Part shown: positions 3,648 to 34,209 of the stretch, piece after piece
Layout: every line of letters starts with the position of its first letter
Position numbering within the stretch: the stretch's first letter is position 1
From: Escherichia phage JLBYU43
Length of the DNA: 64,000 bases
Reading direction: 5' to 3' (one strand)
Sequence record: NC_105512.1
Notes under the pieces: model-generated
Told to the model about the DNA's origin: nothing
Database searches by the model: none
Seen by the model: the letters and a program-made list of their open reading frames with translations, nothing else
Program-made: the position numbers and the translations under genes

Positions 3648-3676
3648 ATTATATTAGAAATTTAGCTTCATAGCAA
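3648..3676 (-). promoter_or_regulatory. sigma70-type promoter (TTGCTA-17-TATAAT)
   Basis: Reverse complement: TTGCTA, 17 nt, TATAAT; overlaps the 3' end of CDS 3654-4172 and precedes the Ser and CAT tRNAs. Confidence 0.55.
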
Positions 3677-4172
3677 GAAAATTTTTCAAGTTTTCGGTAG
3701 ACATCTCATCCACATCTACAGGAGAAACAAATCCATTTAATTGTTTAGCAAATTTTTCACCTGCAGGATCATTATCCCCAACAGCTACCAATTTAAAAGG
3801 TAGTAATTTCAATTGCTTTAACAACGCTTTTCCAGGGGAAGAACCCAACATTGCTAGGGCTGGATAACCAGCATTATGTAATGCAACTGCCTTAAATACA
3901 GATTCAGCAATCAATACTACTTTTTCATCTCCATTGAGAGTTTCTAGTCCCCATACACACTGGGTAGTAGAATAAGTAAAATATTTAGCTTCAAAGGGAC
4001 ACTTACCATGACCTTTTGGAGCAGAAGGATTATAAGTTTGATAGCCCCTCAACATCCCAGAGAAATCATATAACGGGACTGTTAGCCATCCTTCCGGACT
4101 TAACCAGCAATGATATTTTTCTGTATCAAATCCCCTAGATAGAAGGTGCTGTGTTAGCTCATCAACACTCAT
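3654..4172 (-). CDS. hypothetical protein, possible Toprim-like fold (172 aa)
   Basis: ORF-track ORF with AGGAG RBS upstream; LVAVGDNDPAGEKFAKQL resembles a Toprim acidic motif. Weak assignment. Confidence 0.5.
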   Translation of the reverse strand: MSVDELTQHLLSRGFDTEKYHCWLSPEGWLTVPLYDFSGMLRGYQTYNPSAPKGHGKCPFEAKYFTYSTTQCVWGLETLNGDEKVVLIAESVFKAVALHNAGYPALAMLGSSPGKALLKQLKLLPFKLVAVGDNDPAGEKFAKQLNGFVSPVDVDEMSTENLKNFLAMKLNF

Positions 4173-4213
4173 ATTTGATCTCCTAGTTAGTTTTATAAAT
4201 ACATTATATAGAA

Positions 4214-4244
4214 AAGCCCGCGCTCTCGGAGGAAACGCGGGCTT
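4214..4244 (-). terminator. intrinsic terminator hairpin
   Basis: AAGCCCGCG/CGCGGGCTT 9-bp GC-rich stem with 13-nt loop, followed on the minus strand by TTCTAT; immediately 3' of CDS 4268-5284. Confidence 0.55.
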
Positions 4245-4267
4245 GTTTCGAAGATTACGTGTAACTA

Positions 4268-5284: not shown

Positions 5285-5321
5285 ATGTTTCCTTTGTTTT
5301 AGTTACAGTTAATAAAATTGG

Positions 5322-5393
5322 CCGAGGTGACAGGATTCGAACCTGCATAAAGGAATTTAGAAGACTCCTGCCTATCCCTTAGACTACACCCCG
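5322..5393 (-). tRNA. tRNA-Arg (TCT)
   Basis: Acceptor CGGGGTG/CACCTCG, anticodon arm GGAGT-CTTCTAA-ATTCC, T-arm GCAGG-TTCGAAT-CCTGT, CCA at 5319-5321. Confidence 0.65.
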
Positions 5394-13226: not shown

Positions 13227-13255
13227 TTTATTATCCTTTTGTACTTATTGAGTAT

Positions 13256-13285
13256 ATTATATTTGAAATTGTACTTAATAAGCAA
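13256..13285 (-). promoter_or_regulatory. sigma70-type promoter (TTGCTT-17-TATAAT)
   Basis: Reverse complement: TTGCTT, ATTAAGTACAATTTCAA, TATAAT. Confidence 0.55.
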
Positions 13286-13303
13286 ATACAATTTCAAATA
13301 TAA

Positions 13304-13319
13304 TAGTCCCGAAGGACTA
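13304..13319 (-). terminator. intrinsic terminator (tetraloop hairpin)
   Basis: TAGTCC/GGACTA stem with TTCG loop on the minus strand, followed by TTATATTTG; just 3' of thyA. Confidence 0.6.
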
Positions 13320-13325
13320 TTTAAG

Positions 13326-14165
13326 TTAAGAAGACATTTTAGCTTTAAGAGCTGGATGCGGATCATATCCTTCCAGCTTGAAAGACCAAGCCGCAGTATT
13401 ATTCTCTAATAAATCATAGAGATCTACAAATTCTGGCATTACTAGAGTTGGCAAGGGACGTGGTTTACGTTTCAATTGCTCCTCTACTTGCTCTATATGA
13501 TCACTGTAAATATGTGTATCTCCACCACTAAAGATGAGATAACGGGGTTTTAATCCAGTCAGTTTTGCCAGGATATGTGTTAATAAAGCATAACTAGCAA
13601 TATTGAAAGGTAGGCCTAGAAAACAGTCTACAGAACGTTGTGTCCATTTAAGATCTAAGTATCCATCATTACTTACGTAACATTGGAAACCATAGTGACA
13701 TGGTGGTAATGCCATCTTATCCAGTTCAGCTACATTCCATGCAGATACTAGGTGTCTACGACCATGTGGATTATTCTTGAGACCCTCAATGAGTTCTAGA
13801 ATCTGATCTCGTCCACCAAAGTTACGCCATTGTTTGCCATATACTGGCCCTAGATTACCCTTGTCATATCCCATACTTATGGCTTGGTCTTCATAATTTG
13901 GAGTCCAGATGGTCCACTGTCCTTCGTCACGCCCAAATGTGAATACTCGTAGATCATGGAGATTTGTAGATCCAGATAAAAACCATAAGAGTTCTCCAAC
14001 TACCGATTTCCAAGCTAGACGTTTAGTAGTTACAGCTGGGAATCCCTCACGTAAATCGAACTTAGCATAGGAATCAAAAATTGAAACTGTGCCTGTTCCT
14101 GTACGATCGTTACGTGGTTCACCTAGTAGAATTACATCTGTTAGAATTTTTAAATATTGTTGCAT
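13326..14165 (-). CDS. thyA: thymidylate synthase
   Basis: Full-length ThyA with conserved motifs (LAWKSVVGELLWFLSG, RSVDCFLGLPFNIASYALL). Confidence 0.9.
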   Translation of the reverse strand: MQQYLKILTDVILLGEPRNDRTGTGTVSIFDSYAKFDLREGFPAVTTKRLAWKSVVGELLWFLSGSTNLHDLRVFTFGRDEGQWTIWTPNYEDQAISMGYDKGNLGPVYGKQWRNFGGRDQILELIEGLKNNPHGRRHLVSAWNVAELDKMALPPCHYGFQCYVSNDGYLDLKWTQRSVDCFLGLPFNIASYALLTHILAKLTGLKPRYLIFSGGDTHIYSDHIEQVEEQLKRKPRPLPTLVMPEFVDLYDLLENNTAAWSFKLEGYDPHPALKAKMSS

Positions 14166-14698
14166 TAATAAGTAACCAATTCCTGTACAAATCGCAGGCT
14201 GTTATCACTGTTTGCGCCAGTTGCGTAAACTAAACGAGTAGATTCATAGTTGTAATCTAGAATCATATTATCCAGATGTACATCTGCATCTAGTTTTTGA
14301 TTACTAAAGATTGTTGATACAAAAGCACTTTCAATATGTCCATGAATATACATTTCGTATAGTAATGTTGCGCCACCTAAAACCACTGTCTGTTGATCTT
14401 TTAAGAATGTAGGTAATGTATCCCCAATCTTAGAAATTGGAGTGTAAATACCATGTTTAATATCATCAGGCAGAGGACGATCCGCACGAATAAAGAGGTC
14501 AGATTCTCCAATCATACGTTGCCGAACAACTTCTGGAAGTGCTAAATAAGTACCCACACCAATGATGATGTTATCTGGGTTCAACACGTCCAGTTGAGAG
14601 TAGAAAGCATCTAGTTCTTCTTTGAAGGAACCCCAGGGGAGTTTACCTCGGAGGCCGAACTCCCCATTCGGCCCAACTGCATATAATGCCGTTATCAT
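14165..14698 (-). CDS. folA: dihydrofolate reductase
   Basis: MITALYAVGPNGEFGLRGKLPW and GGATLL motifs; start set at the ATG overlapping the nrdB stop (ATGA). The ORF-track N-terminal extension is judged spurious. Confidence 0.85.
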   Translation of the reverse strand: MITALYAVGPNGEFGLRGKLPWGSFKEELDAFYSQLDVLNPDNIIIGVGTYLALPEVVRQRMIGESDLFIRADRPLPDDIKHGIYTPISKIGDTLPTFLKDQQTVVLGGATLLYEMYIHGHIESAFVSTIFSNQKLDADVHLDNMILDYNYESTRLVYATGANSDNSLRFVQELVTY

Positions 14699-15840
14699 AA
14701 GAAATCTCCAAATTCGTTGCCAAGATCTTTCAGAGTATCCATAGATGTTTCTGTGACTTGACCTACACGATATGCTGCGCCAATCTGAATCTCTTGCGGA
14801 GCAGGTTGTAAAGATGTAGTATCCAACCAGTTCATGATCCACGGAATAGGGTTTTTGGTGATTACTGGTAAATGACTAGGCCATTCTACACCAATGTGCA
14901 TAAACGCATTACGCCCCACAAAATATAGGTACTCTTCTAGAAGTTCTGCATTCAAGCCAATCAGACTACGACCTTTGAAAATGAAATGACCCCATTCAAT
15001 TTCAGTTTTCAGAGTTTTCAGGAGCTGTGCTGGTGCTTTAGCCACTGCTTCATCCACCAGATCTTTGTCAAACTGCTGGAACATAATCTGGATGATTGCT
15101 TTGGACATCTGAGTATGCAGAGCTTCATCTTTAGCGATTAATTGCAGATTTTTAGCAATACCCTGCAGAATATCATTCTCTGCTAATGCAAAGGTACATG
15201 CAAAGGATGCGTAAAACTGCATTGCTTCCAGACCGTAGATCGCAAAGTAAGCGTCTAATAGCTTAGCCTGAGTTTCACGTTTAACTTCAGGGAACTCAGT
15301 TTCTGGATATGTATTGTCGCCACGATGATCGCGTACTGCGATGAAATACTGACCTAACTGGTACAGTTCATCGAATAGTTCAACAGAATCAGCGATGCGT
15401 GCGAATGCTTCTTGGTTTTTGGTTACAGAATCAATAAATTCTGCTGGATCAGTTAGCACATTACGAATAATATTGCTATAAGCACGACTATGCAGATCTT
15501 CGAAGTAGCTCCACTGTTTGAGCATACCTTCTAGTTCTGGACGACTTACAAGCGGCATAATAGCTGCTTCAGGAGCACGACTGATAAAAGAATCTGTTTG
15601 AGTCTGCCATGCTAAGTTCAGGAGTGTAATTTCCTGAATTTCACGTGGGAGATTAGGCCATTGTTTCTTATCTGCTTCCAGACTGATTTCAGTTTCAGTC
15701 CAAAATTGAGAGCGTTGCAAAAGTGCCAGACGTTCTAGTTCTGGGTGTGCTACACGTACATAATCTGCGATACCGAGAGAATCGCCCAGGAAAAGGTCAG
15801 CGTTAGTATGGTCCCAATTCAGGTTTAGTAAAGTAGTCAT
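14695..15840 (-). CDS. nrdB: ribonucleotide reductase class Ia beta subunit
   Basis: 381-aa NrdB-like protein with the ferritin-like diiron ligand pattern (E...H and ...EALH) and a C-terminal tail. Confidence 0.9.
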   Translation of the reverse strand: MTTLLNLNWDHTNADLFLGDSLGIADYVRVAHPELERLALLQRSQFWTETEISLEADKKQWPNLPREIQEITLLNLAWQTQTDSFISRAPEAAIMPLVSRPELEGMLKQWSYFEDLHSRAYSNIIRNVLTDPAEFIDSVTKNQEAFARIADSVELFDELYQLGQYFIAVRDHRGDNTYPETEFPEVKRETQAKLLDAYFAIYGLEAMQFYASFACTFALAENDILQGIAKNLQLIAKDEALHTQMSKAIIQIMFQQFDKDLVDEAVAKAPAQLLKTLKTEIEWGHFIFKGRSLIGLNAELLEEYLYFVGRNAFMHIGVEWPSHLPVITKNPIPWIMNWLDTTSLQPAPQEIQIGAAYRVGQVTETSMDTLKDLGNEFGDFL

Positions 15841-15871
15841 TGATTTTCCTCTTTCTCACTATTTCAGGAAT

Positions 15872-15900
15872 ATTATAGCAAATCTGGTAGCGATTAGCAA
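15872..15900 (-). promoter_or_regulatory. sigma70-type promoter (TTGCTA-17-TATAAT)
   Basis: Reverse complement: TTGCTA, ATCGCTACCAGATTTGC, TATAAT; precedes nrdB. Confidence 0.6.
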
Positions 15901-15946
15901 GTAAAATTTCAAAGAAAAAGGAGACCCGAAGATCTCCTTGTTTTTA

Positions 15947-18277
15947 TTAAATAGTACAACCACCGGATGCACAACCGGCTGCTTCTTCTCCAGCACCTCC
16001 ACCATTTGCGGTATTGAAGTTTGCATAGTAGAAAGTTTTCCACCCATACTTAACAGCAGTCATGAAATCACGAACTACTACTGGGCCAGGAATGATTTCA
16101 TTCTCAAACTTGGTGTAGTCATAGTACATATTCGTACTGATAGACTGACTGAAGAATTTCTGCATAGTTGCTACCCATTTGATCCACTCGATACGATCTA
16201 CATCATAAGCCAGTTTATAGCTCATTAACGTTTCCCAATCAGTTGCACCTGGAGCAATTGCAATTACTTTATTAACTGCACTACCCTTGATAGATACAAT
16301 CTTACGAGGTGGTTCGATAGAGTTAGTAACACCTAACAGAACAGAAGAACTTTCTCCCGGCATCTGAGCAGTCAGAACAGAGTTACGCATACCATATTTC
16401 AGAATATCTGCACGCAGAGACTCCCAATCCATTTCTAGACCTACAGATACCAGTTCATCAACAGTTTTCTTGTACGTGTCGATTACCAGAATTCCTTTAG
16501 ACGGTTTAGTACGATCAAACCACTCACATGCACCCTGTTCTTTAGCTAGGCGTACAGAGGCTTTATGCAGGAAGTAAGACAGTTTTTCAGCCTCACGGTG
16601 GATCCAGTTACGGGCTTCAATACCTTCATAAGCCAGACCTTCTGCTGCCATTGCACCTGCTGCGTTCATTAGGCCAATACCAACATTACGACGTTTCTTA
16701 GCCGTATATTCCATAGTTGGGAACGGATAATCCTGAATTTCAATAATTGTATCAACGAATTTCAGGAGGATGTAGCAAGTTTTTTCCCACTCAGCCAGAG
16801 ATTCCATGCGTCCAAGTACAACACCACCTAAGTTACACAGAGATACTTCACCAATATCCTCCGGCTTCATTTGATCAAGCTGCTCTTTTGTCTTATACAG
16901 TTCTGTGATATGATGGAACGGGCGTGTAGGCTGAGTAATTTCAACACAAAGGTTTGTCATACGGATCGGATCAAGGAAGTTACCATGACGATTAGATTCC
17001 CCGATGTGATGAGCATACATACGTCCTGTTTCCATTCGGATACGTAGCCAAGTATCTAGGATTTCTTTTGCGGAAACTTTAGGAGCTGCTGGAACTGTTT
17101 TTCCTTCATGATCGATCTTTGTAAGAGATGCCACACGTTTCTCCGCTGCCACGTAGATTTCTTCAAATTTAGCCTCGTCATCACTATAAAACGCTTCATG
17201 AACTTCTGGAGCATAGAAGTATGACATTAGCGTAATATCTTCGTTTTTAAGATAACGTTTTAACAAAAGATTGTTAAAGCTCAGAGAATAATCCATCTTA
17301 TCGATTTTATTCTCATCTGTAGCACGTTGTTGCTTAACCTGCATCAATTGAATGATTTCAGGGTCGAAGTATGGATAAGACACTGTGGCAGAACCACCAC
17401 GAGTTTGCTGAGTATTGGCCTTTACTGAGCGGTCAATGTGTCGATAATATGGCAGTTTTCCGGAATGCGGGAATGCCCCATTTCGCACCGGATCAGCAAT
17501 TGATCGGCTTTCAAGATGATACCCGATTCCCGCTCTGGCTGCGACCATTTTGAAGACGATGTGCTCGGCGGTGTCGATTGAATCCAACGTGTCAGTGGAA
17601 TCCACGAGGCAGCAACTAGCAAATCCACGGTCACTAGAGCGCAGACCAACCAGTGGCGGCGTAGGAACGTTGATTTTGTGGAGTGACATTGCGTTGTAGA
17701 GGTCGATTGCATCTAGAATTGTCCAGTTAGGTTGAGATAGCATCGCCATTGCCATACCCATGTAGGCAAACTGCGGAGTTTCGTAAATTTCACCAGTGGC
17801 TATGTTGCGACGGGAATACTTATCAAAGAACTGCTTCAGTCCACCACTAGTAAAAAGACGATCACGATCATGGTCGATAACCTGATTCAGAGCTTCAAAT
17901 TGCTCATCGGTAATCCATGCACTCATGTCTTCCCATGCACCTACGCTAACCATATGGTCATGGAAGAAGCGTAGAGAAGGTGGTTCGAAAGAGTCATAGA
18001 GGCGCTTACGCATTTGCGCAAGACGTAATTCCTTTGCTGGCACATCGTATGCTGGGTTATCTTTAATAAGACTTTCAGCAGCTTTAATTAATGCATCCAT
18101 CAGAGTGTCGGAATCTACAACCCCTTTAGGCAGAGTTTTTTGAGCAGCCATAGTAATGGCTGACCAACTTACATCAACTGTTTTGCAACCATACTCTGCC
18201 CAACCATTGATTTTTTCAGGAGCAAAGTCTTCTACAGTACCGTCACGTTTAATTACTTTTTCAATGCGATGGCTCAT
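15947..18277 (-). CDS. nrdA: ribonucleotide reductase class Ia alpha subunit
   Basis: NrdA-like throughout, with active-site region NLCVEI and C-terminal CxxC tail. Start set at MSHRIEKVIKRDGT with AAAGGAAAG RBS; the 35-codon ORF-track extension is judged spurious. Confidence 0.9.
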   Translation of the reverse strand: MSHRIEKVIKRDGTVEDFAPEKINGWAEYGCKTVDVSWSAITMAAQKTLPKGVVDSDTLMDALIKAAESLIKDNPAYDVPAKELRLAQMRKRLYDSFEPPSLRFFHDHMVSVGAWEDMSAWITDEQFEALNQVIDHDRDRLFTSGGLKQFFDKYSRRNIATGEIYETPQFAYMGMAMAMLSQPNWTILDAIDLYNAMSLHKINVPTPPLVGLRSSDRGFASCCLVDSTDTLDSIDTAEHIVFKMVAARAGIGYHLESRSIADPVRNGAFPHSGKLPYYRHIDRSVKANTQQTRGGSATVSYPYFDPEIIQLMQVKQQRATDENKIDKMDYSLSFNNLLLKRYLKNEDITLMSYFYAPEVHEAFYSDDEAKFEEIYVAAEKRVASLTKIDHEGKTVPAAPKVSAKEILDTWLRIRMETGRMYAHHIGESNRHGNFLDPIRMTNLCVEITQPTRPFHHITELYKTKEQLDQMKPEDIGEVSLCNLGGVVLGRMESLAEWEKTCYILLKFVDTIIEIQDYPFPTMEYTAKKRRNVGIGLMNAAGAMAAEGLAYEGIEARNWIHREAEKLSYFLHKASVRLAKEQGACEWFDRTKPSKGILVIDTYKKTVDELVSVGLEMDWESLRADILKYGMRNSVLTAQMPGESSSVLLGVTNSIEPPRKIVSIKGSAVNKVIAIAPGATDWETLMSYKLAYDVDRIEWIKWVATMQKFFSQSISTNMYYDYTKFENEIIPGPVVVRDFMTAVKYGWKTFYYANFNTANGGGAGEEAAGCASGGCTI

Positions 18278-18315
18278 TTGGCTTTCCTTTTTATAGTTAT
18301 CAGGATTTAAGGAAT

Positions 18316-18344
18316 ATTCTACTTTATTATCGGTCATTAGGCAA
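18316..18344 (-). promoter_or_regulatory. possible sigma70-type promoter (TTGCCT-17-TAGAAT)
   Basis: Reverse complement: TTGCCT, 17 nt, TAGAAT, upstream of the nrdA RBS. Confidence 0.4.
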
Positions 18345-18419
18345 ATAAAATTTTCTGATAGAAAAGGCCCGAGTATTTTCATACCCAGGCCCTGTGTATT
18401 ACCAGTCTAGCTTTTTAGC

Positions 18420-18641
18420 TTATTCAATTACTTTAGCTCTAGCTACTTCTTTTAATAGAATATCTATGGAGGTGCTCAGCTCGTTATAATTGAATGGTTT
18501 ATTTGGATTTGAGGTTACAATTTTCCACGCTAGGGTTGTCTTAGGACTTTCTTCCCCTTCCTTACGTGTAATAATATTAGCAGCACTCAGTGAAGTACGA
18601 TGTATTTTAGTTTTACGGCTCAGATGAACGACGTTTCCCAT
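18420..18641 (-). CDS. hypothetical small protein (73 aa)
   Basis: Start moved to the ATG (MGNVVHLSRK...) one nt after the phoH stop. Confidence 0.4.
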   Translation of the reverse strand: MGNVVHLSRKTKIHRTSLSAANIITRKEGEESPKTTLAWKIVTSNPNKPFNYNELSTSIDILLKEVARAKVIE

Positions 18642-18642
18642 A

Positions 18643-19404
18643 TTACACCTTCCCCATGTCTTTAAAAATACCATAGAATGCTTTAGACTCAACAGAACGA
18701 ACGTTATCAATCAATTCGATCATTGAGAATGGGGCATTTTCATATTTCTCATAGACTTCCATAAGGAGTGCTAGACCTGAGTCACCTTTAATGTCTTTCT
18801 GAGCTATATCTCCGCAGATAATTAAACGGCAGTCTTGTCCTACACGAGTTAGGAGACAAATCATTGCCTCAACGGAAATATTCTGAGCTTCATCGACAAT
18901 TACATAGGAGTTGTTGAAAGTTCTGCCACGAGCATGTTCGATAGCCAAAAATTTAATTTTCTGACGTTCGACATATCCCTTATATGCATGATCTCCGATG
19001 GCCCATTTCATACCATCAGCTATTGGCTCCAACCAAGGCTCTAGCTTTTCCGCTAGATCACCAGGAAGCATACCAAGAGACTTACCTAGAGGTTCATTAG
19101 GACGTACGAGGATCACTTGCTCAATATCTGAGTGAATGTCTACGAGTTCCTGAGCTGCAAGAACGGACGGAATAAAGGTTTTACCAGTACCTGGCTCACC
19201 GATACCCACAGTCACTGTGTTGTTCTTGATCATATTGATATATGATTTTTGCTCGCGGTTTTTACCTACTAGGGATTTAGCAACTGGGTTAGCGTAATCA
19301 TTAGAAAAATCAGCCTGAATTACGTTATTCTCATATTTGTTGCCACGCTTTCTTGAACCATTGCGGTTCTCTCTTTTTTGACGTGCTTTTCCCATAAATA
19401 ACAC
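18643..19404 (-). CDS. phoH: PhoH-like ATPase
   Basis: Walker A GEPGTGKT and Walker B VIVDEAQN in a PhoH-like arrangement. Confidence 0.85.
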   Translation of the reverse strand: MLFMGKARQKRENRNGSRKRGNKYENNVIQADFSNDYANPVAKSLVGKNREQKSYINMIKNNTVTVGIGEPGTGKTFIPSVLAAQELVDIHSDIEQVILVRPNEPLGKSLGMLPGDLAEKLEPWLEPIADGMKWAIGDHAYKGYVERQKIKFLAIEHARGRTFNNSYVIVDEAQNISVEAMICLLTRVGQDCRLIICGDIAQKDIKGDSGLALLMEVYEKYENAPFSMIELIDNVRSVESKAFYGIFKDMGKV

Positions 19405-19471
19405 TCCTATAGTGTACTTCGCTTCTAACAGAGGATCAACAAAAAGATCTTGTTTATCAACTTACAAATAT

Positions 19472-19500
19472 ATTATACCAATATATGTGGGAGAAAGCAA
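19472..19500 (-). promoter_or_regulatory. sigma70-type promoter (TTGCTT-17-TATAAT)
   Basis: Reverse complement: TTGCTT, TCTCCCACATATATTGG, TATAAT; precedes phoH. Confidence 0.6.
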
Positions 19501-19637
19501 CTACAATTTTAAATAAGCATATGATATTGCATTTAAATAAAAAATTTGCTTGCTTATAGAGGCAGAAATATGATACTAGATAATCATTTATTTATACGCA
19601 AAATATTACAGTATTAGATGACGAAAGAAAATTTTAA

Positions 19638-19666
19638 TTGACATAGTGGATAATGTTTAGTATAAT
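19638..19666 (+). promoter_or_regulatory. consensus sigma70 promoter (TTGACA-17-TATAAT)
   Basis: TTGACA at 19638-19643, 17-nt spacer, TATAAT at 19661-19666; first plus-strand promoter, divergent from the phoH promoter. Confidence 0.65.
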
Positions 19667-19693
19667 AGGTGTAAAAATTCTGTGGAGAAGGGG

Positions 19694-20558
19694 AATGCCG
19701 AAAAAATTAACTCAAGAAGAAGTAGATAAATGCCTAGCCGAACGTGGTTTTACTATGGTGGATAAGCCTTACCAAAATTCTAGGTATAGGCATACGTATC
19801 AGTGTGAATATGGTCATCAATGGACATCTAAATTTGATGCTATTAGGAATGGAAAGACCAATTGTCCTACTTGTTCTATTAATAGCCGTAAACTAGATAT
19901 CGATAAAATTAATACTGTATTACAGGGTAGGGGTATTACATTGTTGGAGGGCTATAAAAATAGTGCCGATATAAATACTAAATTTAGGTGTGTTTGTGGT
20001 CATGAGTGGGCTACTACACTTAATAGTATAATTAATAGAGGTAGTGGCTGCCCCTCTTGTGCTATTAATAAACAAAAACTTAGTATTAATACTATAAACG
20101 ATCGTCTTACTGCTAGGAATATTAGAATAGTAGGTGAATATAGTAATGCGAATATTAAGACCACCTTTCTCTGTGGTGCAGGGCATCAGTGGGAAGCTAC
20201 TCCAGGATCCGTGTTAGGAGGAAATGGTTGTCCTTACTGTAAGTATAGGGATTTAGAAAATACTAAGGTATATATTATGCATAGCCCTTCACATGGTGTT
20301 AAAATAGGAAGGTCTAACAATCCAGAGCGCAGACTTTTACATATTAAATCTAGTAGTCACCTTACTGATCTGGAAGTAATTAAAGTATTTGAAATTGGAG
20401 AATATAGTGATGCTGTTCAAATCGAAAAATTAGCTCATAATTACTTTAAAGAACAGAATTGCCAATACAAAGATTTTGATGGTGCTACGGAATTCTTCAA
20501 TATTGAGCCAGAAGTAGCTATAAAATTTATCGAGGAAATAATCAATGACAGAAAATGA
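19694..20558 (+). CDS. T5orf172-domain (GIY-YIG-like) protein with three N-terminal zinc-ribbon repeats
   Basis: Three tandem repeats each ending C..GH.W...(G)CP.C(S/A/K), then KIGRSNNPERRL...GATEFF. Start set at the ATG at 19694 after GGAGAAGGGG RBS. Confidence 0.7.
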
Positions 20559-22371
20559 ACTAATTGAAAATTGCAAAGGTTTACTTACTCTAACTGCTGA
20601 CAAAGACTTGCAGCATAATAATGCTAATAAACCTAGCGAGATGTTTCATACACAGAGGGACTTACTAGCTGGAGAAATCAACAAGTATTTAGTAGCACAA
20701 GAATTACCTAAACATTTATTAGACGCCCATAATCTAGGTAAAATACACATCCATGATATGGATTATAGAGCACAGGGGTACACTAACTGTTGTTTAGTAG
20801 ACCTAGGTGGTATGTTGAAAAATGGTACTAAAATTGGTAATGCGAATATTGAAACTCCTAAATCTATAACTACTGCATGTGCGATTACTGCTCAGATTAT
20901 TGCTCAGGTATCAGGCGCTCAGTATGGGGGTACTTCTATTGATCGTATTGATGAAGTTCTAGCTCCGTATGTTAGGAAGTCCTACAATAAACATCTGGGG
21001 CGTGGCCTACGTTGGCTTAAGGATGAGAGAAAAGCTGCTGTATATGCTACTGAACTTACTGAAAAAGAATGTTATGATGCATTCCAAGCTCTAGAGTATG
21101 AAACTAATTCATTATTTAACTCTAATGGGCAGACTCCTTTTATTACGCTGGGCTTTGGATTAGGGCAGGAGTGGGAGGAAAGGATGATTCAGAAAGCCAT
21201 CCTCCAAAATCGTATTAAAGGTTTAGGTGCTGCTGAGTCAACTCCTATCTTCCCTAAACTAGTATTCTCAGTTAAAGAAGGGTTAAATAAAAATCCAGGT
21301 GATCCTAACTATGATATAAAACAACTAGCACTTGAGTGTTCTGCTACTCGTATGTACCCAGACTATTTAAGTTACGAGAAAGTTGTAGCTGTTACTGGTG
21401 ATTTTAAAGCCCCTATGGGTTGTCGTAGTTTTTTATCTGCCATCCCCTCTGGAGAAATTGCAGGACGTAATAATTTAGGTGTTGTGTCTATCAATCTACC
21501 TATGGTTGCTGCTGAGGCAGATGGAGTTTTTGAAGATTTCTGGGATATTCTAGACAAATATGTGGATGAGGCTTTTGAAGCACATGACTTCTTCTTAAAC
21601 AGACTGAAGAAAGTTAAGGCTAAACAAGCCCCTATTCTTTATATGCACGGTGGTTTTGGTGTACGTTTAGAAGGAGAAGAATATGTATGGCCTATTTTTG
21701 AGGGTAGATCTTCTGTATCTCTTGGGTATATTGGGGTCTATGAGATGTGCCAAATAATGTTTAGTTTACCACAGACTCATAGGGACTGTATTGAATTTAC
21801 AGAGGAAGTTCTCACTCACCTAAAAAATCGTTGCGAAGTTAAAGCTACTGAAACTAATCTTGGGTTTAGCTTGTATGCTACTCCTAGTGAGTCTCTGTGT
21901 AATCGCTTTAATAAACTACTGGAGCGTAGATTCCCAGAGTATTCTTGGTTAGCAGATAAAGGTTATCTTACTAATAGCCATCATTTGGACGTGAGGGAGA
22001 AGGTAGCTCCAGATACTAAATTTGAGTATGAGGCTCATTTTACTAAAATAGCTAATGGTGGTAATATATCATTTGTGGAACTACCTCAAATGAAAAAGTT
22101 CCACAAAGCTCTTGAGTATGTGGTGGATAAGGGGCTAGAATGTAGTCATTATATTGGTGTTAATATACCAATTGATGAGTGCTTCAATTGTGGGTATATG
22201 GGTGAATCTATTGCTTCTGAGCGTGGGTTTGTATGTCCAAGTTGTGGGTCTGAAGAAATAGAGGTTACACGTAGGGTTTGCGGGTACCTGGGATCCCCTG
22301 GCAGTAGGCCTTTCAATTCTGGGAAACAAAAAGAAGTTCTTGGTAGAGTAAAACACTTAAATTTCAAGTAA
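20545..22371 (+). CDS. nrdD: anaerobic ribonucleoside-triphosphate reductase (class III)
   Basis: C-terminal zinc ribbon CFNCGYMG...CPSCGS followed by glycyl-radical motif RRVCGYLG. Confidence 0.85.
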   Translation: MTENELIENCKGLLTLTADKDLQHNNANKPSEMFHTQRDLLAGEINKYLVAQELPKHLLDAHNLGKIHIHDMDYRAQGYTNCCLVDLGGMLKNGTKIGNANIETPKSITTACAITAQIIAQVSGAQYGGTSIDRIDEVLAPYVRKSYNKHLGRGLRWLKDERKAAVYATELTEKECYDAFQALEYETNSLFNSNGQTPFITLGFGLGQEWEERMIQKAILQNRIKGLGAAESTPIFPKLVFSVKEGLNKNPGDPNYDIKQLALECSATRMYPDYLSYEKVVAVTGDFKAPMGCRSFLSAIPSGEIAGRNNLGVVSINLPMVAAEADGVFEDFWDILDKYVDEAFEAHDFFLNRLKKVKAKQAPILYMHGGFGVRLEGEEYVWPIFEGRSSVSLGYIGVYEMCQIMFSLPQTHRDCIEFTEEVLTHLKNRCEVKATETNLGFSLYATPSESLCNRFNKLLERRFPEYSWLADKGYLTNSHHLDVREKVAPDTKFEYEAHFTKIANGGNISFVELPQMKKFHKALEYVVDKGLECSHYIGVNIPIDECFNCGYMGESIASERGFVCPSCGSEEIEVTRRVCGYLGSPGSRPFNSGKQKEVLGRVKHLNFK

Positions 22372-22378
22372 GCTAATC

Positions 22379-22410
22379 AGCCAGGTTGCTAGTCGACCTG
22401 GCTTTTATTT
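22379..22410 (+). terminator. intrinsic terminator
   Basis: AGCCAGGT/ACCTGGCT 8-bp stem with 9-nt loop followed by TTTTATTTT, directly 3' of nrdD. Confidence 0.7.
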
Positions 22411-23029: not shown

Positions 23030-23243
23030 AAATGTTAGTCTTATTGACCTGAGTAAACTCAATGTAGAGTTTCAGGGGGTTTTAATGAAGCACTGGGAAA
23101 CTGGCTATAAGGATGGTGTTGAATCCTGTGCTACTATGCTAGAATTTATTGCTAATACCTTAGTGGAGAAAGGCAATAAAGAATTAGCTGAGCTGTTAGA
23201 CAGTATTGGGCAAAACTTCAGAGAGCAGGTGAAAAATGCGTAG
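22998..23243 (+). CDS. hypothetical protein (81 aa)
   Basis: ORF-track ORF with GGAG RBS; overlaps both neighbours. Confidence 0.45.
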   Translation: MAFSSQKLPSENVSLIDLSKLNVEFQGVLMKHWETGYKDGVESCATMLEFIANTLVEKGNKELAELLDSIGQNFREQVKNA

Positions 23244-24012
23244 ACTAATCATTGTTAGTGGTGCTGGTTTAAGTGTTGATAGTGGTATCCGTGCATTCCG
23301 TACAGATACTGCTAGTGGTAAAGCAATGTGGGACGAGTACGATCTAGAAGAGGTGTGTGATATTCATGCTTTTCGTGGCCAGTTCTACTGGAAAACCCAC
23401 GAGTTCTACAACAAGCGTCGTCAGGAGTTGCGGACTGTTGAACCTAACATTGCGCACCTTCGTATTGGGGAATGGTTCCAGCGGTATCCAGAAGCGGTAC
23501 TAAACATTACTACTAACGTAGATGACTTGCTGGAAAGAGCTGGTGTGCCGAAAAGTGAGGTTCTCCACGTTCATGGCTATTTACCGGAAGTTCGTATTAA
23601 GGAATTGCCAGACCGAAAAGAGTACATCCTAGATGTGGGCTATACTGCTATTGATCCTGATGAATTTTATTGGGCAAAGCCTAACGTTGTATTCTTTGGT
23701 GAAGCAGCCCCCGAATATGCTCTGATGCATGCCACTTTTGATAGTCTTACAGCTAACGATATGGTTATCGTGGTTGGGTGTAGTAACCAAGTTATCAACT
23801 TCAACTGGGAACTTTTTCCTGCACTAGCTCGTGGTACTAAGATGATGGTTGTTAACCCAACTATTAACTACTTGGAACAATCCCTGTACGAAGAGCGTGG
23901 TGTTACTGTATGGCGTGCTGGGGCTGCCGAAGTTTTCGGTAACAAACACTTTATTGGCCAGGTAGAAGCTTTTATGGAAGGAACTATTTATGCCCCAGAA
24001 AAGCATGTGTGA
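23236..24012 (+). CDS. Sir2-family (sirtuin-like) NAD-binding protein
   Basis: N-terminal GAGLSVDSGIRAFR matches the sirtuin NAD-binding signature GAG(I/L)S..SGIP.FR; 258 aa is compatible with a single Sir2 domain. Confidence 0.6.
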   Translation: MRRLIIVSGAGLSVDSGIRAFRTDTASGKAMWDEYDLEEVCDIHAFRGQFYWKTHEFYNKRRQELRTVEPNIAHLRIGEWFQRYPEAVLNITTNVDDLLERAGVPKSEVLHVHGYLPEVRIKELPDRKEYILDVGYTAIDPDEFYWAKPNVVFFGEAAPEYALMHATFDSLTANDMVIVVGCSNQVINFNWELFPALARGTKMMVVNPTINYLEQSLYEERGVTVWRAGAAEVFGNKHFIGQVEAFMEGTIYAPEKHV

Positions 24013-24152
24013 TCTTTTAGTATGGCCGGACGGTAGTTGGTGCTACCGTTTCGAATTTGCTACCGATGACTTCTCATGGAAAAGTGATGATTTCTGCGTT
24101 ATCTAAGAGGATACAGCAGAATGGAAAGAGTTCCTTATTAAGGAGGGAGAGT

Positions 24153-24338
24153 ATGGTGAAGAAGATTTTTAAGGGTATCTGGAAGGGTCTATTATGGTTT
24201 GTCAACCTAATCGGTATGATTACCATTTATTCTCTGTTCCTATCTGTTATGTGGGGTAAAGGTGAACTGAAGGTTCCAGTTCCTTTTACTGATGAAGTTA
24301 AAGTCTGGACGTGGGATGCTACTGGTGGAAATAAGTAA
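24153..24338 (+). CDS. small membrane protein (61 aa)
   Basis: Start set at the ATG after AAGGAGGGAGAG RBS; hydrophobic segment GLLWFVNLIGMITIYSLFLSVMW. Confidence 0.45.
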   Translation: MVKKIFKGIWKGLLWFVNLIGMITIYSLFLSVMWGKGELKVPVPFTDEVKVWTWDATGGNK

Positions 24339-24528
24339 TACTCCTGTGATTTTCCTGGATATTGATGGGGTGCTCAATTCGAGCATCTCTCACCATCATG
24401 CTCGAGATAATGAAAAGCTGTTCTTTGGCAGTGATTGGGTTTATAAGCCATTACTCCAGGCTTTTCAGAACTTCCTCAAACCTTCTCCAATAATGATTGT
24501 TGGGGTATCTTCATGGTTTTCTGTATGA
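24316..24528 (+). CDS. HAD-like phosphatase, N-terminal part (ends at in-frame TGA)
   Basis: Contains FLDIDGVLN, resembling HAD motif I (DxDG); ORF ends at TGA 24526-24528, in the same frame as the next ORF. Confidence 0.4.
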   Translation: MLLVEISNTPVIFLDIDGVLNSSISHHHARDNEKLFFGSDWVYKPLLQAFQNFLKPSPIMIVGVSSWFSV

Positions 24529-24534
24529 AATGAA

Positions 24535-24831
24535 ATGGAGAACGTTCAGATTATGACCGGACTCGGTTTGATCGATCGTTTTCTTGGTACAACAGATTTT
24601 ACTGGAGGTGGTTTATCTAGGGGTAATTCTGTTTTACGTTTTGTCGAAAAATATAAGCTCAAACATTGGTGTGTGCTGGATGATGCCGGTGCTATGATGT
24701 ATCAGTATCCAACGGTTATAGTCAATGGTAGAACTGGGATAAATCTTCAAGATTTAAGAGCTGTTAGCTATATGTTAGAATTTAGTCCAGATCTTGAAAT
24801 GTGTAAAGCCCTACAGCAATTTAAGGTGTAA
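24535..24831 (+). CDS. HAD-like phosphatase, C-terminal part
   Basis: Begins 6 nt after the TGA in the same frame; KYKLKHWCVLDDAG resembles HAD motifs III/IV. Confidence 0.4.
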   Translation: MENVQIMTGLGLIDRFLGTTDFTGGGLSRGNSVLRFVEKYKLKHWCVLDDAGAMMYQYPTVIVNGRTGINLQDLRAVSYMLEFSPDLEMCKALQQFKV

Positions 24832-24833
24832 AT

Positions 24834-25262
24834 ATGTTTAATAATGTATTCTCTAAAGAAGCTAACCCAATTTTGGTTAACTTTTGGCGTACTCTCCCAG
24901 CTAGCCTGTATAATGAGGCTATTAACTCTTTGAAAATATGGTGTGAGAATAACGAAATCTCCTTTGCTTTTAAAGATGATATTGATGAGGCCCCTTGTAT
25001 TGGTTTAATTGTTCAGGTAGAGGAGGGTCTTGAAGAGATTGTCGGCTGGAAAGAGTTAGATGAAATGGGCTTAGTTTTTGCATTAAATTATAAGCTGTTT
25101 ATGCCTGCTAAGCATCGCCTCGTTGTTAACTATAAAACTAGTGAGTCTCCTGGTTTTCAGGTTAATGAACGTGAGGGCTGGTCATATTCGCCCGAGGAAG
25201 TAAATGAAGGGATTCAGAAACTTCGTCGTTTCGGGTATATGATCCCAGGTTTAACTGCTTAA
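24834..25262 (+). CDS. hypothetical protein, paralog A (142 aa)
   Basis: ORF-track ORF; C-terminal 80 aa align with CDS 25272-25667 (W.EL..MGL..A.N...F.P......ESP..QV......Y.......G...R.G...PGL). Confidence 0.55.
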   Translation: MFNNVFSKEANPILVNFWRTLPASLYNEAINSLKIWCENNEISFAFKDDIDEAPCIGLIVQVEEGLEEIVGWKELDEMGLVFALNYKLFMPAKHRLVVNYKTSESPGFQVNEREGWSYSPEEVNEGIQKLRRFGYMIPGLTA

Positions 25263-31859: not shown

Positions 31860-32168
31860 ATGAGCGAACAGGTAAATCAAAACTATGAAGGACACGTTGA
31901 TGACCAGTCCATCATACTTTGGGAGAAGGAGGGAGAACAAGTAAGATTAACAGTATCTGAATTTCGTGGGAATCTATACATGGGTATTCGTTACTGGCTT
32001 CTTGATATTAATGATGAATGGTTTCCAACGAAATCTGGCTTCTCTTTTCCTTACACCCTAGAAACAACATCACAGCTTTTCTATGCGTTTACACAGATTC
32101 TTAGTGAATCTGAGGTTTTACATGAAGTACAGAAACGAGCTGAAGAACTCAAAGCCAAGAATGCCTAG
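31860..32168 (+). CDS. hypothetical protein (102 aa)
   Basis: ORF-track ORF. Confidence 0.5.
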   Translation: MSEQVNQNYEGHVDDQSIILWEKEGEQVRLTVSEFRGNLYMGIRYWLLDINDEWFPTKSGFSFPYTLETTSQLFYAFTQILSESEVLHEVQKRAEELKAKNA

Positions 32169-32195
32169 TTCTTGGCTTTTTCTTTATAAATGTAT

Positions 32196-32224
32196 TTGCT
32201 TTCAACTCAGTTTTATTATATAAT
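32196..32224 (+). promoter_or_regulatory. sigma70-type promoter (TTGCTT-17-TATAAT)
   Basis: TTGCTT, TCAACTCAGTTTTATTA, TATAAT, leader ATAAATTGATGAGAG. Confidence 0.65.
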
Positions 32225-32255
32225 ATTTATATAAATTGATGAGAGATATAAATAA

Positions 32256-33227
32256 ATGACTAATGTAAAAGACTTTATTAAACGTTGCCAAGAAGCGTAT
32301 TACCAGGGAATGTCTTTAATCTCTGACGAAGAATATGATCGTCTGATTAAAAGATTTCCGTTAGAAGAAGAGATCGGGCCTAAGGGCGATATTCCACATC
32401 TGTATCGTATGTATTCTTTACAGAAAGTTTACTTTGATCGTGGTGATAAAGCTCCGTTTACTACCCTTGATGATGTAGAAACTGATAAGTTAGATGGTTG
32501 TGCAATTTCTCTACTGTATATCGACGGAACGTTTGTTCAAGCATTAACTCGTGGTAATGGTATTCTAGGAAATGATGTCACAAGCAACGTTAGATTGCTG
32601 AACATCCCGAAAAAGATTTCCCAAAAAGTACCAACTCAAATCACTGGTGAAGTTCTTATCACTAAAGAAGTAGAAAACAAACGTAACTACGCTTCCGGTG
32701 CTATTAACTTAAAAGAAGAAGATGACTTCATCGAACGTATTGCAGAAGGTGGCTTGATTTTTGTAGCGTACGGTATTCAGTGTTCAGAGGATTCTGTAGG
32801 TATTACAGGTTCTTACTTAGATGATATGTCTTGGTTGGCTAACGAAGATTTTATCACTGTAATGAACATTAAAAACTACTTTAATTGGTATCCAACGGAT
32901 GGTAAAGTAGTTCGTATTAATGACAACAACAAATTCTTCCGTGAAGGTTGGACAAATAAACATCCTCGTGGTGCTTATGCAATCAAACAAGATGAAGAAG
33001 GCGAAATTACAACTCTTCTCAAAGTTGAATGGCAGGTAGGGGCTTCTGGTAAAGTAACTCCAGTTGGTTATTTCGAACCGGTAATTATTGATGATGCTAC
33101 AATTGTTAAGGCGACTCTTAATAACGTTGATTATATTAACTCTCTTGATCTAGAGATCGGTTGCCAGATTCGAGTAATTCGTGCTGGTGGTGTAATCCCG
33201 TGTATAGTAGAGCGAGTATACGATTAA
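32256..33227 (+). CDS. ligA: NAD-dependent DNA ligase, N-terminal half (adenylation and OB domains)
   Basis: SDEEYDRL (domain Ia), KLDGCAISLLY (KxDG adenylation lysine), TRGNGILGNDVTSNVR and IRAGGVIP match LigA motifs. Confidence 0.8.
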   Translation: MTNVKDFIKRCQEAYYQGMSLISDEEYDRLIKRFPLEEEIGPKGDIPHLYRMYSLQKVYFDRGDKAPFTTLDDVETDKLDGCAISLLYIDGTFVQALTRGNGILGNDVTSNVRLLNIPKKISQKVPTQITGEVLITKEVENKRNYASGAINLKEEDDFIERIAEGGLIFVAYGIQCSEDSVGITGSYLDDMSWLANEDFITVMNIKNYFNWYPTDGKVVRINDNNKFFREGWTNKHPRGAYAIKQDEEGEITTLLKVEWQVGASGKVTPVGYFEPVIIDDATIVKATLNNVDYINSLDLEIGCQIRVIRAGGVIPCIVERVYD

Positions 33228-33277
33228 TACATAACCCTTTGCTACCCATCTACCATATCGGAATTATAAAGTGGTTA

Positions 33278-33306
33278 TTGACATTTTCGCCGCTTAGGTA
33301 TATACT
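33278..33306 (+). promoter_or_regulatory. sigma70-type promoter (TTGACA-17-TATACT)
   Basis: TTGACA, 17 nt, TATACT inside the 200-bp gap between the two ligase ORFs. Confidence 0.5.
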
Positions 33307-33370
33307 ATTATCATTCAGTTGAGGGATAGAAAGTTATGGCGAGGGTAAGCAAAGTTAGTTAAAATTGTAG

Positions 33371-33399
33371 TTGCTAAATGCTTAAATACTTGCTATAAT
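33371..33399 (+). promoter_or_regulatory. sigma70-type promoter (TTGCTA-17-TATAAT)
   Basis: TTGCTA, AATGCTTAAATACTTGC, TATAAT, leader ATAAATTGATAAGGAAG. Confidence 0.65.
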
Positions 33400-33429
33400 A
33401 TTTATATAAATTGATAAGGAAGAAATTTG

Positions 33430-34209
33430 ATGAAAATCGAAATTCCAACACAATGTCCCTCTTGTGGTTCTAAGCTAGATCTTGTCAACGGACAATTATT
33501 CTGTCGGAATAAGTCCAACTGTCCAGCGCAATCAAGTAAGTTAATTGAGAACTTCTGTACAAAAATGAAGTTAAAGGGCTTTGGTCCAAAAACTATTGAG
33601 AAGCTGGAGCTGACGAAGATTTCAGAACTATTTTACCTAACCGAAGAAGATTTGGTTAGAGCCGTGGGTAGCAAGGTTGCCGCTAAGTTAATTAGCGAAT
33701 TAAATACTAAAGTTCGCGGAGACATTGACTTTGGTTCAGTTCTCGGTTCTTTAGGAATCCCTCTAATCGGAGAGGTTGCAGCAAAGAAATTATCCCAAAA
33801 TTGCACTAGCTTCCACGATGTGAAGGCTGACGGCAAGGCTGGAGAAAATTATAAAGCCTGGCTAAATTCCCCACAAGGCAAGGATGTTATCGAATTACCG
33901 TGGAAATTTTCAACTGGTATTAGGGGCACTAAAGCTAATATCATCATTACAGATGAATTAGTTGCCCAGCCAAATGGAATCGCGGTATGTATTACCGGAT
34001 CTTTGCAAGATTTTGCAAATCGAACGGATGCAACAAACTATTTAGAAAGTCTAGGGTATACGGTTAAGAAATCAGTTACTAAAGACGTCAAATACCTAAT
34101 CTGTGAGGATGAATCAAAACGTTCTTCCTCATCTTATAAGAAAGCCGAAACGAATGGGATAGAAATCCTGTCGATTAAAGAACTATTGGAGAAAAATAAT
34201 AATGTCTAA
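33430..34209 (+). CDS. ligA: NAD-dependent DNA ligase, C-terminal half (Zn finger, HhH, BRCT)
   Basis: Zinc-finger CPSCGS...C..C, helix-hairpin-helix region and BRCT-like IAVCITGSL; ATG at 33430 preferred over the TTG at 33427. Confidence 0.75.
   Translation: MKIEIPTQCPSCGSKLDLVNGQLFCRNKSNCPAQSSKLIENFCTKMKLKGFGPKTIEKLELTKISELFYLTEEDLVRAVGSKVAAKLISELNTKVRGDIDFGSVLGSLGIPLIGEVAAKKLSQNCTSFHDVKADGKAGENYKAWLNSPQGKDVIELPWKFSTGIRGTKANIIITDELVAQPNGIAVCITGSLQDFANRTDATNYLESLGYTVKKSVTKDVKYLICEDESKRSSSSYKKAETNGIEILSIKELLEKNNNV

What the first reader, a model, noticed from the sequence alone, without database searches (positions are those of the whole stretch)
19694..20558. Triplicated zinc-ribbon module fused to a T5orf172 domain
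The N-terminal 200 aa are three tandem repeats of about 60 aa, each ending in C..GH.W then (G)CP.C, a treble-clef-like zinc-binding unit, followed by a T5orf172 nuclease-like domain. This looks like a modular DNA-recognition array attached to a nuclease, comparable to zinc-finger homing endonucleases.
Basis: seen in the sequence. Interest (0 to 1): 0.4.

Follow-up and report, generated by a model that had tools for sequence, protein, structure and literature searches.

The report
Zinc-finger-array homing endonuclease beside nrdD
This is an ordinary, already described kind of selfish phage gene: a GIY-YIG-type (T5orf172) nuclease guided by three tandem zinc-finger modules, sitting just upstream of the anaerobic ribonucleotide reductase gene of a T5-like phage and apparently moving together with it.

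Summary

The window is a T5-like phage. The gene lies between phoH and nrdD, has its own perfect sigma-70 promoter, and overlaps the nrdD start by 14 nt.

It behaves like a free-standing homing endonuclease gene:
- It is present in about 25 of 442 related phage records.
- It is absent, deleted to remnants, or replaced by a 2-repeat relative in others.
- It sits exactly where 95% homology breaks.
- It lies inside a ~3-kb tract about 100% identical to Salmonella phage 2-3, while the flanks are 85-92% identical.
- Intact copies are under purifying selection (dN/dS about 0.12-0.17).

This architecture, including repeated zinc-finger modules and enrichment in T5-like phages near ribonucleotide reductase genes, was described by Barth, Dunham and Seed (2023). 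Zinc binding, DNA binding, cleavage and homing remain inferred.

The parts
19590..19694 (+). Gene-specific upstream region. Homology to phages that lack the gene ends at about 19589.
   Evidence: Identity to phage LmqsSP1 is 95% over 13245-19589 and then breaks. The four-way alignment shows SE11 and NBEco002 diverging here.
19638..19666 (+). Perfect sigma-70 promoter, TTGACA-17 nt-TATAAT. It probably drives both the endonuclease gene and nrdD.
   Evidence: 12 of 12 consensus matches, and the only + strand promoter-like site in 19300-20700. It is retained at about 96% identity in the remnant-bearing phages HildyBeyeler and DT57C.
19684..19693 (+). Purine-rich ribosome-binding site, GGAGAAGGGG.
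   Evidence: Read directly from the sequence. The GGAG ends 7 nt before the ATG at 19695.
19695..20558 (+). Coding sequence of the 287-aa T5orf172-family endonuclease (stop codon included).
   Evidence: It is 99.7% identical to YP_009852015.1 'endonuclease' of Salmonella phage 2-3.
19704..19877 (+). Zinc-finger module 1 (aa 4-61); ligands C37, H41, C57, C60.
19890..20063 (+). Zinc-finger module 2 (aa 66-123); ligands C99, (C101 or H103), C119, C122.
   Evidence: (best DUF4379 and CapR stretch).
20076..20243 (+). Zinc-finger module 3 (aa 128-183); ligands C160, H164, C179, C182.
20262..20540 (+). T5orf172 / MUG113 (GIY-YIG superfamily) nuclease domain, aa 190-282. Nearly invariant residues are Y193, K203, G205, R213, E244 and E266.
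20545..22371 (+). nrdD (anaerobic ribonucleotide reductase). It overlaps the endonuclease gene by 14 nt and is a divergent allele linked to that gene.
   Evidence: It is 67-69% identical to the nrdD of LmqsSP1, a phage lacking the gene. This allele occurs in only 48 records, which carry the gene or, in those examined, its remnants.
19400..22400 (.). Recent transfer tract of about 3 kb (promoter + endonuclease gene + nrdD), essentially 100% identical to Salmonella phage 2-3. Boundaries are approximate.
   Evidence: A 150-nt sliding identity profile gives 99-100% inside the tract and 85-92% in the flanks.

Best explanation
The gene is a free-standing homing endonuclease gene of the T5orf172 family in a T5-like phage (Demerecviridae, closest to Salmonella phage 2-3).

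**Proposed mechanism.**
1. Three independently folded ~60-aa CapR/DUF4379 zinc-finger modules sit like beads on a string. Each holds one zinc through a Cys/His knuckle on a beta-hairpin and a CPxC at the start of a helix.
2. Together the modules recognise a long DNA site and position the C-terminal GIY-YIG-type T5orf172 nuclease domain to cut nearby.
3. In mixed infections the enzyme would cut the phoH-nrdD junction or nrdD 5' region of phages that lack the gene.
4. Recombinational repair would then copy in the gene together with its linked, divergent nrdD allele.
5. The gene carries its own consensus promoter, and its 3' end overlaps the nrdD start. nrdD is therefore expressed as the second gene of the cassette.
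6. That would explain why the promoter and the 3' end survive in phages where the reading frame has been deleted.

**Shown here:** the architecture, ligand and catalytic-residue conservation, the folds, the sporadic distribution, the remnants, the homology break, the transfer tract and purifying selection.

**Inferred:** zinc binding, DNA binding, the cleavage site, and homing itself.
For: **Architecture.** Pfam, PHROG and repeat statistics.

**Mobility signature.**
- 442 phage records match the flanks but only 25 contain the gene.
- SE11 and LmqsSP1 have an empty site with their own nrdD promoter.
- HildyBeyeler has a ~673-bp frameshifting internal deletion, and DT57C keeps only the promoter and the last ~120 bp.
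- NBEco002 has a 2-repeat relative at the same site.
- Homology to LmqsSP1 is 95% for 6.3 kb up to 19589, then 67% in nrdD.
- A ~3-kb tract is ~100% identical to phage 2-3 within flanks of 85-92%.

**Other.** GC is 34.5% against 38.8% for the window. dN/dS is mostly 0.12-0.17 in both domains. The published class description matches: repeated Zn-finger DNA-binding domains, enrichment in T5-like phages, and 33% of such genes next to RNR genes (PMC10448857).
Against: - No biochemical or genetic test exists for this protein or its close orthologs. I found no report of homing for a T5-like T5orf172 gene.
- The near-identical tract could come from ordinary recombination unrelated to nuclease activity.
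- Low dN/dS fits a selfish active nuclease but equally a domesticated function.
- The whole-model Foldseek search against PDB gave nothing significant.
- The only solved DUF4379 domains sit in kinetoplastid mitoribosome assembly complexes, not on DNA.
- In 100 of 539 family units neither the His nor the alternative Cys is present, so four-ligand zinc binding is not universal in the family.
Confidence: 0.75

Rival explanations
1. The protein is a domesticated nuclease or DNA-binding factor that benefits the phage. It might exclude competing T5-like phages or satellites (as ICP1 Odn does), or regulate the nrdD operon (as CapR and CasPR repress transcription). It would not be an actively homing selfish gene.
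For: There is purifying selection across both domains. The gene forms an operon-like unit with nrdD under a consensus promoter. Relatives with the same domains have been co-opted as a repressor (CapR), an anti-CRISPR silencer (CasPR) and an anti-satellite nuclease (Odn). Barth et al. state that homing cannot be told from domestication by bioinformatics alone.
Against: Most T5-like phages lack the gene, and it has been deleted at least twice while nrdD was kept, so it is dispensable. The nuclease catalytic residues are intact, unlike a pure repressor. It sits at a recombination boundary inside a transfer tract, as expected for a homing gene. PADLOC gives only weak domain-level hits.
Confidence: 0.15
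2. The zinc modules bind RNA or protein rather than DNA, and the protein is not a sequence-specific DNase.
For: The only solved structures with this module (mt-SAF33, a DUF4379 protein in 6yxx, and mS66) are in ribosome or assembly complexes rich in RNA and protein contacts.
Against: The module is fused here to a DNA endonuclease fold. CapR binds promoter DNA directly, and CasPRs bind sites in cas genes through this domain. The genomic behaviour is that of a DNA-targeting mobile gene.
Confidence: 0.05
3. The gene is an inactive, decaying relic with no current activity.
For: Decayed copies exist in related phages. The homing-gene life cycle predicts degeneration after fixation.
Against: The reading frame is intact. 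All 13 ligand residues and 6 nuclease residues are invariant in six orthologs with dS up to 0.33 and dN/dS of about 0.12-0.17. The promoter and ribosome-binding site are consensus-like.
Confidence: 0.05

Closest known systems
T5orf172 homing endonuclease genes with repeated CapR/DUF723/DUF4379 zinc-finger DNA-binding domains (Barth, Dunham & Seed 2023, NAR Genom Bioinform, PMC10448857)
   Same: The domain order is the same: an N-terminal array of Zn-finger modules and a C-terminal T5orf172 domain. The paper notes enrichment in T5-like phages, location next to ribonucleotide reductase genes, and position at boundaries of genetic exchange. All of these are seen here.
   Different: Nothing categorical. 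This copy has three modules, and relatives have 2-6. The specific linkage to a divergent nrdD allele, and the retention of the promoter and 3' end in remnants, are details worked out here for this locus.
CapR of the Vibrio cholerae PLE satellite, and phage CasPR anti-CRISPR proteins
   Same: They share the CapR homology zinc-finger module (Pfam PF21817, 40.5 bits). Their conserved cysteines are required for DNA-dependent repression. CasPR's C-x-C-x-C...C-x-C pattern lines up with C99-x-C101-x-H103...C119-x2-C122 here.
   Different: CapR and CasPR lack a nuclease domain and act as transcriptional repressors. Here the array is fused to an intact T5orf172 nuclease domain, and two of the three modules use His in place of one Cys.
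ICP1 Odn (Gp88), the biochemically tested T5orf172 nuclease
   Same: It has a T5orf172 domain with a conserved catalytic Arg and Glu, and it cleaves DNA in vitro unless the Glu is mutated. R213 and E266 are conserved here.
   Different: Odn is targeted by a RepA_N domain to satellite replication origins and serves phage defence. This protein is targeted by zinc-finger modules and behaves like a mobile gene.
I-TevI and other GIY-YIG homing endonucleases of T4-like phages (Seg proteins)
   Same: [quoted passage not shown]
   Different: The domain order is reversed: in I-TevI the nuclease is N-terminal. I-TevI has a single small zinc finger plus a helix-turn-helix, not a tandem array. It is intron-encoded, whereas this gene is free-standing.
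Kinetoplastid mitoribosomal DUF4379 proteins (mt-SAF33, mS66)
   Different: They are eukaryotic organellar ribosome or assembly proteins with no nuclease domain and a different partner molecule.

Membership tests
T5orf172 / GIY-YIG superfamily nuclease domain | Profile match above the curated threshold | tested here: met
   PF10544 scores 46.5 bits (cutoff 20) over aa 192-282. PF13455 MUG113 scores 47.3 bits (cutoff 22.3).
T5orf172 / GIY-YIG superfamily nuclease domain | GIY-YIG alpha/beta fold | tested here: met
T5orf172 / GIY-YIG superfamily nuclease domain | Conserved first-motif Tyr, catalytic Arg and metal-binding Glu | tested here: met
   Y193, K203, G205, R213, E244 and E266 are at least 90% conserved in 32 homologs and invariant in six orthologs. 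Their equivalence to I-TevI R27/E75 and Odn E180 is inferred from motif order, not from a residue-level superposition.
T5orf172 / GIY-YIG superfamily nuclease domain | DNA cleavage activity | not testable with these tools
   Shown only for the relative Odn.
CapR / DUF4379 zinc-finger module | Profile match above the curated threshold | tested here: met
   PF14311 scores 53.9 bits (cutoff 24.5) in three stretches. PF21817 scores 40.5 bits (cutoff 24.2).
CapR / DUF4379 zinc-finger module | Four conserved Cys/His ligand positions in each unit | tested here: met
   All three units have C, H, C, C. Family-wide conservation is 92%, 68% His (or 35% Cys at -2), 100% and 99%.
CapR / DUF4379 zinc-finger module | Fold like solved DUF4379 domains; knuckle plus helix (treble-clef) topology | tested here: met
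CapR / DUF4379 zinc-finger module | Zinc binding and sequence-specific DNA binding | not testable with these tools
   Supported only by mutagenesis of CapR and CasPR in the literature.
Free-standing homing endonuclease gene | Sporadic presence at one fixed locus among close relatives, with empty sites | tested here: met
   25 of 442 records hold the gene. Empty sites are seen in SE11 and LmqsSP1.
Free-standing homing endonuclease gene | Degenerate copies (the invasion-decay cycle) | tested here: met
   HildyBeyeler has a ~673-bp frameshifting deletion. DT57C has lost ~748 bp.
Free-standing homing endonuclease gene | Co-conversion or transfer tract around the gene; gene at a homology boundary | tested here: met
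   A ~100% identical tract runs from ~19400 to ~22400 against flanks of 85-92%. Homology to LmqsSP1 breaks at 19589. This is consistent with homing but does not prove it.
Free-standing homing endonuclease gene | Site-specific cleavage of the allele lacking the gene, and super-Mendelian inheritance in crosses | not testable with these tools
   Needs biochemistry and phage crosses.

The most novel reading that the evidence does not exclude
The ~60-aa CapR/DUF4379 modules might form a truly modular, reprogrammable DNA-reading code. Each module would read a fixed short block of bases, so that repeat number and order set the target. Under this reading, the 2-repeat and 3-repeat genes found at the same nrdD site would be specificity variants made by module gain, loss or shuffling. 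That would make this very abundant family (16,496 cluster representatives, with proteins up to 1,629 aa) a natural counterpart of C2H2 zinc-finger or TALE arrays fused to a nuclease.
Probability: 0.1. Interest if true: 0.65.

Novelty: already known. Interest (0 to 1): 0.2.

Why it matters
For phage biology this is a clean textbook example, not a discovery. A selfish nuclease gene sits at the edge of a mosaic block and appears to drag an essential-pathway gene (nrdD) between phages that are otherwise ~87% identical. Its promoter and 3' end outlive the gene itself because nrdD depends on them. The practical value lies in annotation: several GenBank records call the ortholog 'hypothetical protein' or 'putative helicase'. 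The gene is also a tractable candidate for testing how tandem CapR/DUF4379 modules read DNA, which has not been determined for any member.

Tried and rejected
- **Translation from the stated start (19694)** gives 53 stops. The frame starts at 19695.
- **Paralogs in the window.** tblastn of either half of the protein found none, although related phages carry 3-5 paralogous places elsewhere in their genomes.
- **Sequence and profile searches of PDB** found only kinetoplastid DUF4379 proteins and no nuclease structure.
- **NCBIfam** gave no meaningful hit.
- **PADLOC** gave only weak T5orf172-domain hits to the candidate system PDC-S57. I do not take this as membership of a defence system.
- **The longer 301-aa ORF** starting at 19653 was rejected because that ATG lies inside the promoter spacer.
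- **A recent DNA-level triplication** was rejected, because the repeats are only 54-61% identical in DNA.
- **A classical treble-clef or zinc-ribbon PDB neighbour** for the single repeat was looked for, but nothing appeared above noise beyond the DUF4379 proteins.
- **Literature search** found no experimental study of homing by a T5-like T5orf172 gene.
- **Target-site inference** was not attempted beyond locating the region replaced in phages that carry the gene.

Full report
**1. What is in the sequence**

The + strand ORF that matches the finding starts at the ATG at 19695 and ends with the stop codon at 20558, giving 287 aa.

A longer ORF from the ATG at 19653 exists, but that ATG lies in the spacer of a perfect sigma-70 promoter. 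The promoter is TTGACA, 17 nt, TATAAT at 19638-19666, with 12/12 matches, and it is the only + strand site found in 19300-20700. A GGAG ends 7 nt before the ATG at 19695. RefSeq annotators of the 99.7%-identical ortholog chose the same start.

**2. The repeats**

The N-terminal 188 aa are three units: aa 4-61, 66-123 and 128-183. Each carries C-x3-H and, about 20 residues later, C-P-x-C. The ligand sets are:
- C37/H41/C57/C60
- C99/H103/C119/C122, with an extra C101
- C160/H164/C179/C182

Pairwise identity is 30-45%. Local alignment scores lie 12-20 standard deviations above 2000 shuffles, and no shuffle reached the observed value. At the DNA level the units are only 54-61% identical, so the triplication is ancient.

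**3. Family assignments**

Pfam gives these hits:

| Family | E-value | Bits (cutoff) | Region |
|---|---|---|---|
| DUF4379 'probable treble clef zinc finger', three stretches | 2.2e-14 | 53.9 (24.5) | best stretch aa 97-123 |
| CapR homology domain | 3.1e-10 | 40.5 (24.2) | best stretch aa 71-123 |
| T5orf172 | 5.5e-12 | 46.5 (20) | aa 192-282 |
| MUG113 | 3.2e-12 | 47.3 (22.3) | aa 202-281 |

PHROG 681 'endonuclease' matches almost end to end at 1.8e-65. NCBIfam adds nothing.

**4. Conservation in homologs**

A word-indexed search found 184 relatives. An exhaustive search of 1.84 billion cluster representatives found 16,496 at E<=1e-3 and 6,046 at E<=1e-10, with proteins up to 1,629 aa. The family is very large.

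A repeat HMM iterated on 121 proteins found 539 units, 2-8 per protein. Ligand conservation was:
- First Cys: 92%
- Third Cys: 100%
- Fourth Cys: 99%
- Second ligand: His in 68% of units, or a Cys two residues earlier in 35%. Both are present in 117 units and neither in 100.

This C-x-C-x-[H/C] pattern matches the C33/C35/C37 set reported for CasPR proteins.

Among the 22 proteins that also carry a T5orf172 domain, the repeat number is 2-6, most often 3. In a 32-sequence alignment the nuclease-domain residues Y193, K203, G205, R213, E244 and E266 are at least 90% conserved.

It is not met.

**5. Structure**

An AlphaFold2 model of the whole protein has mean pLDDT 89 but pTM 0.47. That combination means confident domains in an undefined mutual arrangement, 'beads on a string'.

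Each unit is a helix, a short strand, a beta-hairpin whose two strands flank the C...H pair, a short helix, and then CPxC at the start of a final helix. One ligand pair on a hairpin and the other at a helix N-terminus is the treble-clef arrangement, not a classical zinc ribbon. This rests on my knowledge of zinc-finger fold classes. I had no coordinates to measure ligand distances.

Fold searches gave the following:
- Whole-model Foldseek against PDB was uninformative.
- Profile and sequence searches of PDB find the same proteins only.

The second refutation criterion was that the repeats do not model as zinc-binding folds. It is not met either, within the limits of prediction.

**6. Genomic setting**

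The window is a T5-like phage. The locus is 98.8% identical to Salmonella phage 2-3 (Epseptimavirus), where the gene is annotated 'endonuclease'. Other records call the ortholog 'GIY-YIG nuclease family protein', 'putative homing endonuclease', 'hypothetical protein' or, wrongly, 'putative helicase'.

The gene lies between a phoH-like gene (18643-19404, - strand) and nrdD (20545-22371, + strand). Its last 14 nt overlap the nrdD start. No paralog lies in the window.

**7. Evidence that it is a mobile (homing) gene**

(a) *Sporadic distribution.* 442 phage records match the flanks at megablast level, but only 25 cover 80% or more of the 2.5-kb query. Most stop matching at window ~19590-19600.

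(b) *Empty sites.* SE11 and LmqsSP1 have no gene there. They have a different intergenic sequence with their own promoter-like elements, and an nrdD that is 16 codons longer.

(c) *Remnants.*
- HildyBeyeler keeps the promoter, the first ~10 nt of the reading frame and the last ~180 bp. It has lost ~673 bp at a 6-bp AATTAA microhomology, and the frame is shifted.
- DT57C keeps the promoter up to 19689 and resumes at 20438.
- Both remnants keep exactly the parts that nrdD would need for transcription and translation initiation.

(d) *An alternative relative.* NBEco002 carries a 2-repeat relative at the same site. It is 47% identical over aa 60-285 and also overlaps nrdD.

(e) *A homology boundary.* Against LmqsSP1 the window is 95% identical for 6.3 kb up to 19589. 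Identity then falls to 67-69% in nrdD and recovers gradually (76%, 86%, 88-96%) over the next 4 kb.

(f) *Allele linkage.* The window-type nrdD allele occurs in only 48 records. These include the gene-bearing phages and the two examined remnant-bearing phages, HildyBeyeler and DT57C.

(g) *A recent transfer tract.* The window and phage 2-3 are 85-90% identical in nrdA, nrdB and the region to the right. They are 99-100% identical from ~19400 to ~22400, that is, promoter + gene + all of nrdD.

(h) *Composition.* GC is 34.5% against 38.8% for the window.

(i) *Selection.* Across six intact orthologs, with dS up to 0.33, dN/dS is mostly 0.12-0.17 in both the zinc array and the nuclease domain. All 13 ligand residues and 6 nuclease residues are invariant.

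**8. Most likely mechanism**

- *Inferred from CapR/CasPR mutagenesis and DNA-binding data:* the three zinc modules bind an extended DNA site.
- *Inferred from the fold, the conserved Arg/Glu, and the Odn biochemistry:* the T5orf172 domain cuts nearby.
- *Inferred:* in mixed infection the allele lacking the gene is cut in or near the segment that the cassette replaces, namely the nrdD promoter and first codons. Repair then copies the cassette.
- *My inference for why the transfer tract spans all of nrdD:* the two nrdD alleles are only ~67% identical, so crossovers would have to resolve in the better-conserved flanks, and the whole nrdD allele would travel with the gene.

Ordinary recombination could also produce such a tract, so homing is likely but not shown.

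**9. Comparison with what is known**

This is the class described by Barth, Dunham and Seed (2023, PMC10448857). They report T5orf172 homing endonuclease genes in which 87% carry CapR, DUF723 or DUF4379 zinc-finger domains, often in repeats. They report enrichment in T5-like phages, 33% of such genes next to ribonucleotide reductase genes, and location at boundaries of genetic exchange.

CapR itself was proposed to derive from such genes. CasPR anti-CRISPRs use the same module. I-TevI and the T4 Seg proteins are functional analogues with the nuclease at the other end and a single zinc finger. Membership features that can be tested by computation are all met. Activity features cannot be tested here.

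**10. Verdict**

Interest is low, about 0.2.

The locus details are tidy but fit published expectations: the linked divergent nrdD allele, the ~3-kb identical tract, and the retained promoter and 3' end in remnants. The one open, potentially valuable question is whether these modules read DNA in a modular, predictable way. My evidence does not address it.

Noticed in passing
window 15841-15946 and 18383-18420 (compare L001 4823-5338 and 7851-8336): The closest relative, Salmonella phage 2-3, has two extra homing endonuclease genes flanking nrdA: an HNH gene between nrdB and nrdA, and another after nrdA. The window lacks both. The nrd cluster is therefore a hot spot where endonuclease gene content differs between close relatives.
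   Followed up: partly
window 20545-22371 (nrdD): T5-like phages carry two very different nrdD alleles, about 67-69% identical in nucleotide sequence. The allele here starts 16 codons later than the common one, and its start codon lies inside the endonuclease gene.
   Followed up: partly
L002 997-1472 (HildyBeyeler); L006 1740-2143 (DT57C): Two different deletions removed most of the endonuclease gene. Both kept its consensus promoter and its 3' end, which suggests that nrdD expression now depends on cassette sequences.
   Followed up: partly
window 642-5393, - strand: There is a cluster of 11 tRNA genes (Met x2, Pro, Gly, Lys, Asn, Cys, Glu, Tyr, Ser, Arg), the usual T5-type tRNA region. Phage 2-3 has HNH endonuclease genes interspersed there.
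   Followed up: no
public records MG387042.1, OM386657.1 (orthologs of window 19695-20558); small ORF at window 18420-18710: There are annotation errors in relatives. The ortholog is called 'putative helicase' in phages SP3 and ESCO30. The small ORF next to phoH is labelled 'tail length tape measure protein' in several RefSeq records although it sits in the nucleotide-metabolism region.
   Followed up: no
public records MG065692.1 ('Campylobacter phage C13') and OR848434.1 ('Listeria phage LM 4-14-1'): Records named for Campylobacter and Listeria phages carry T5-like nrdD and endonuclease sequence that is 88-91% identical to this Enterobacteriaceae phage. They are probably mislabelled or contaminated records.
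   Followed up: no
L007 23930-25600 and 32841-34794 (phage 2-3; corresponds to window ~23200-24900 and ~32100-34100): In the closest relative, both the Sir2-like gene and the NAD-dependent DNA ligase are annotated as two separate pieces. I did not examine whether the window has the same splits or what separates the pieces.
   Followed up: no
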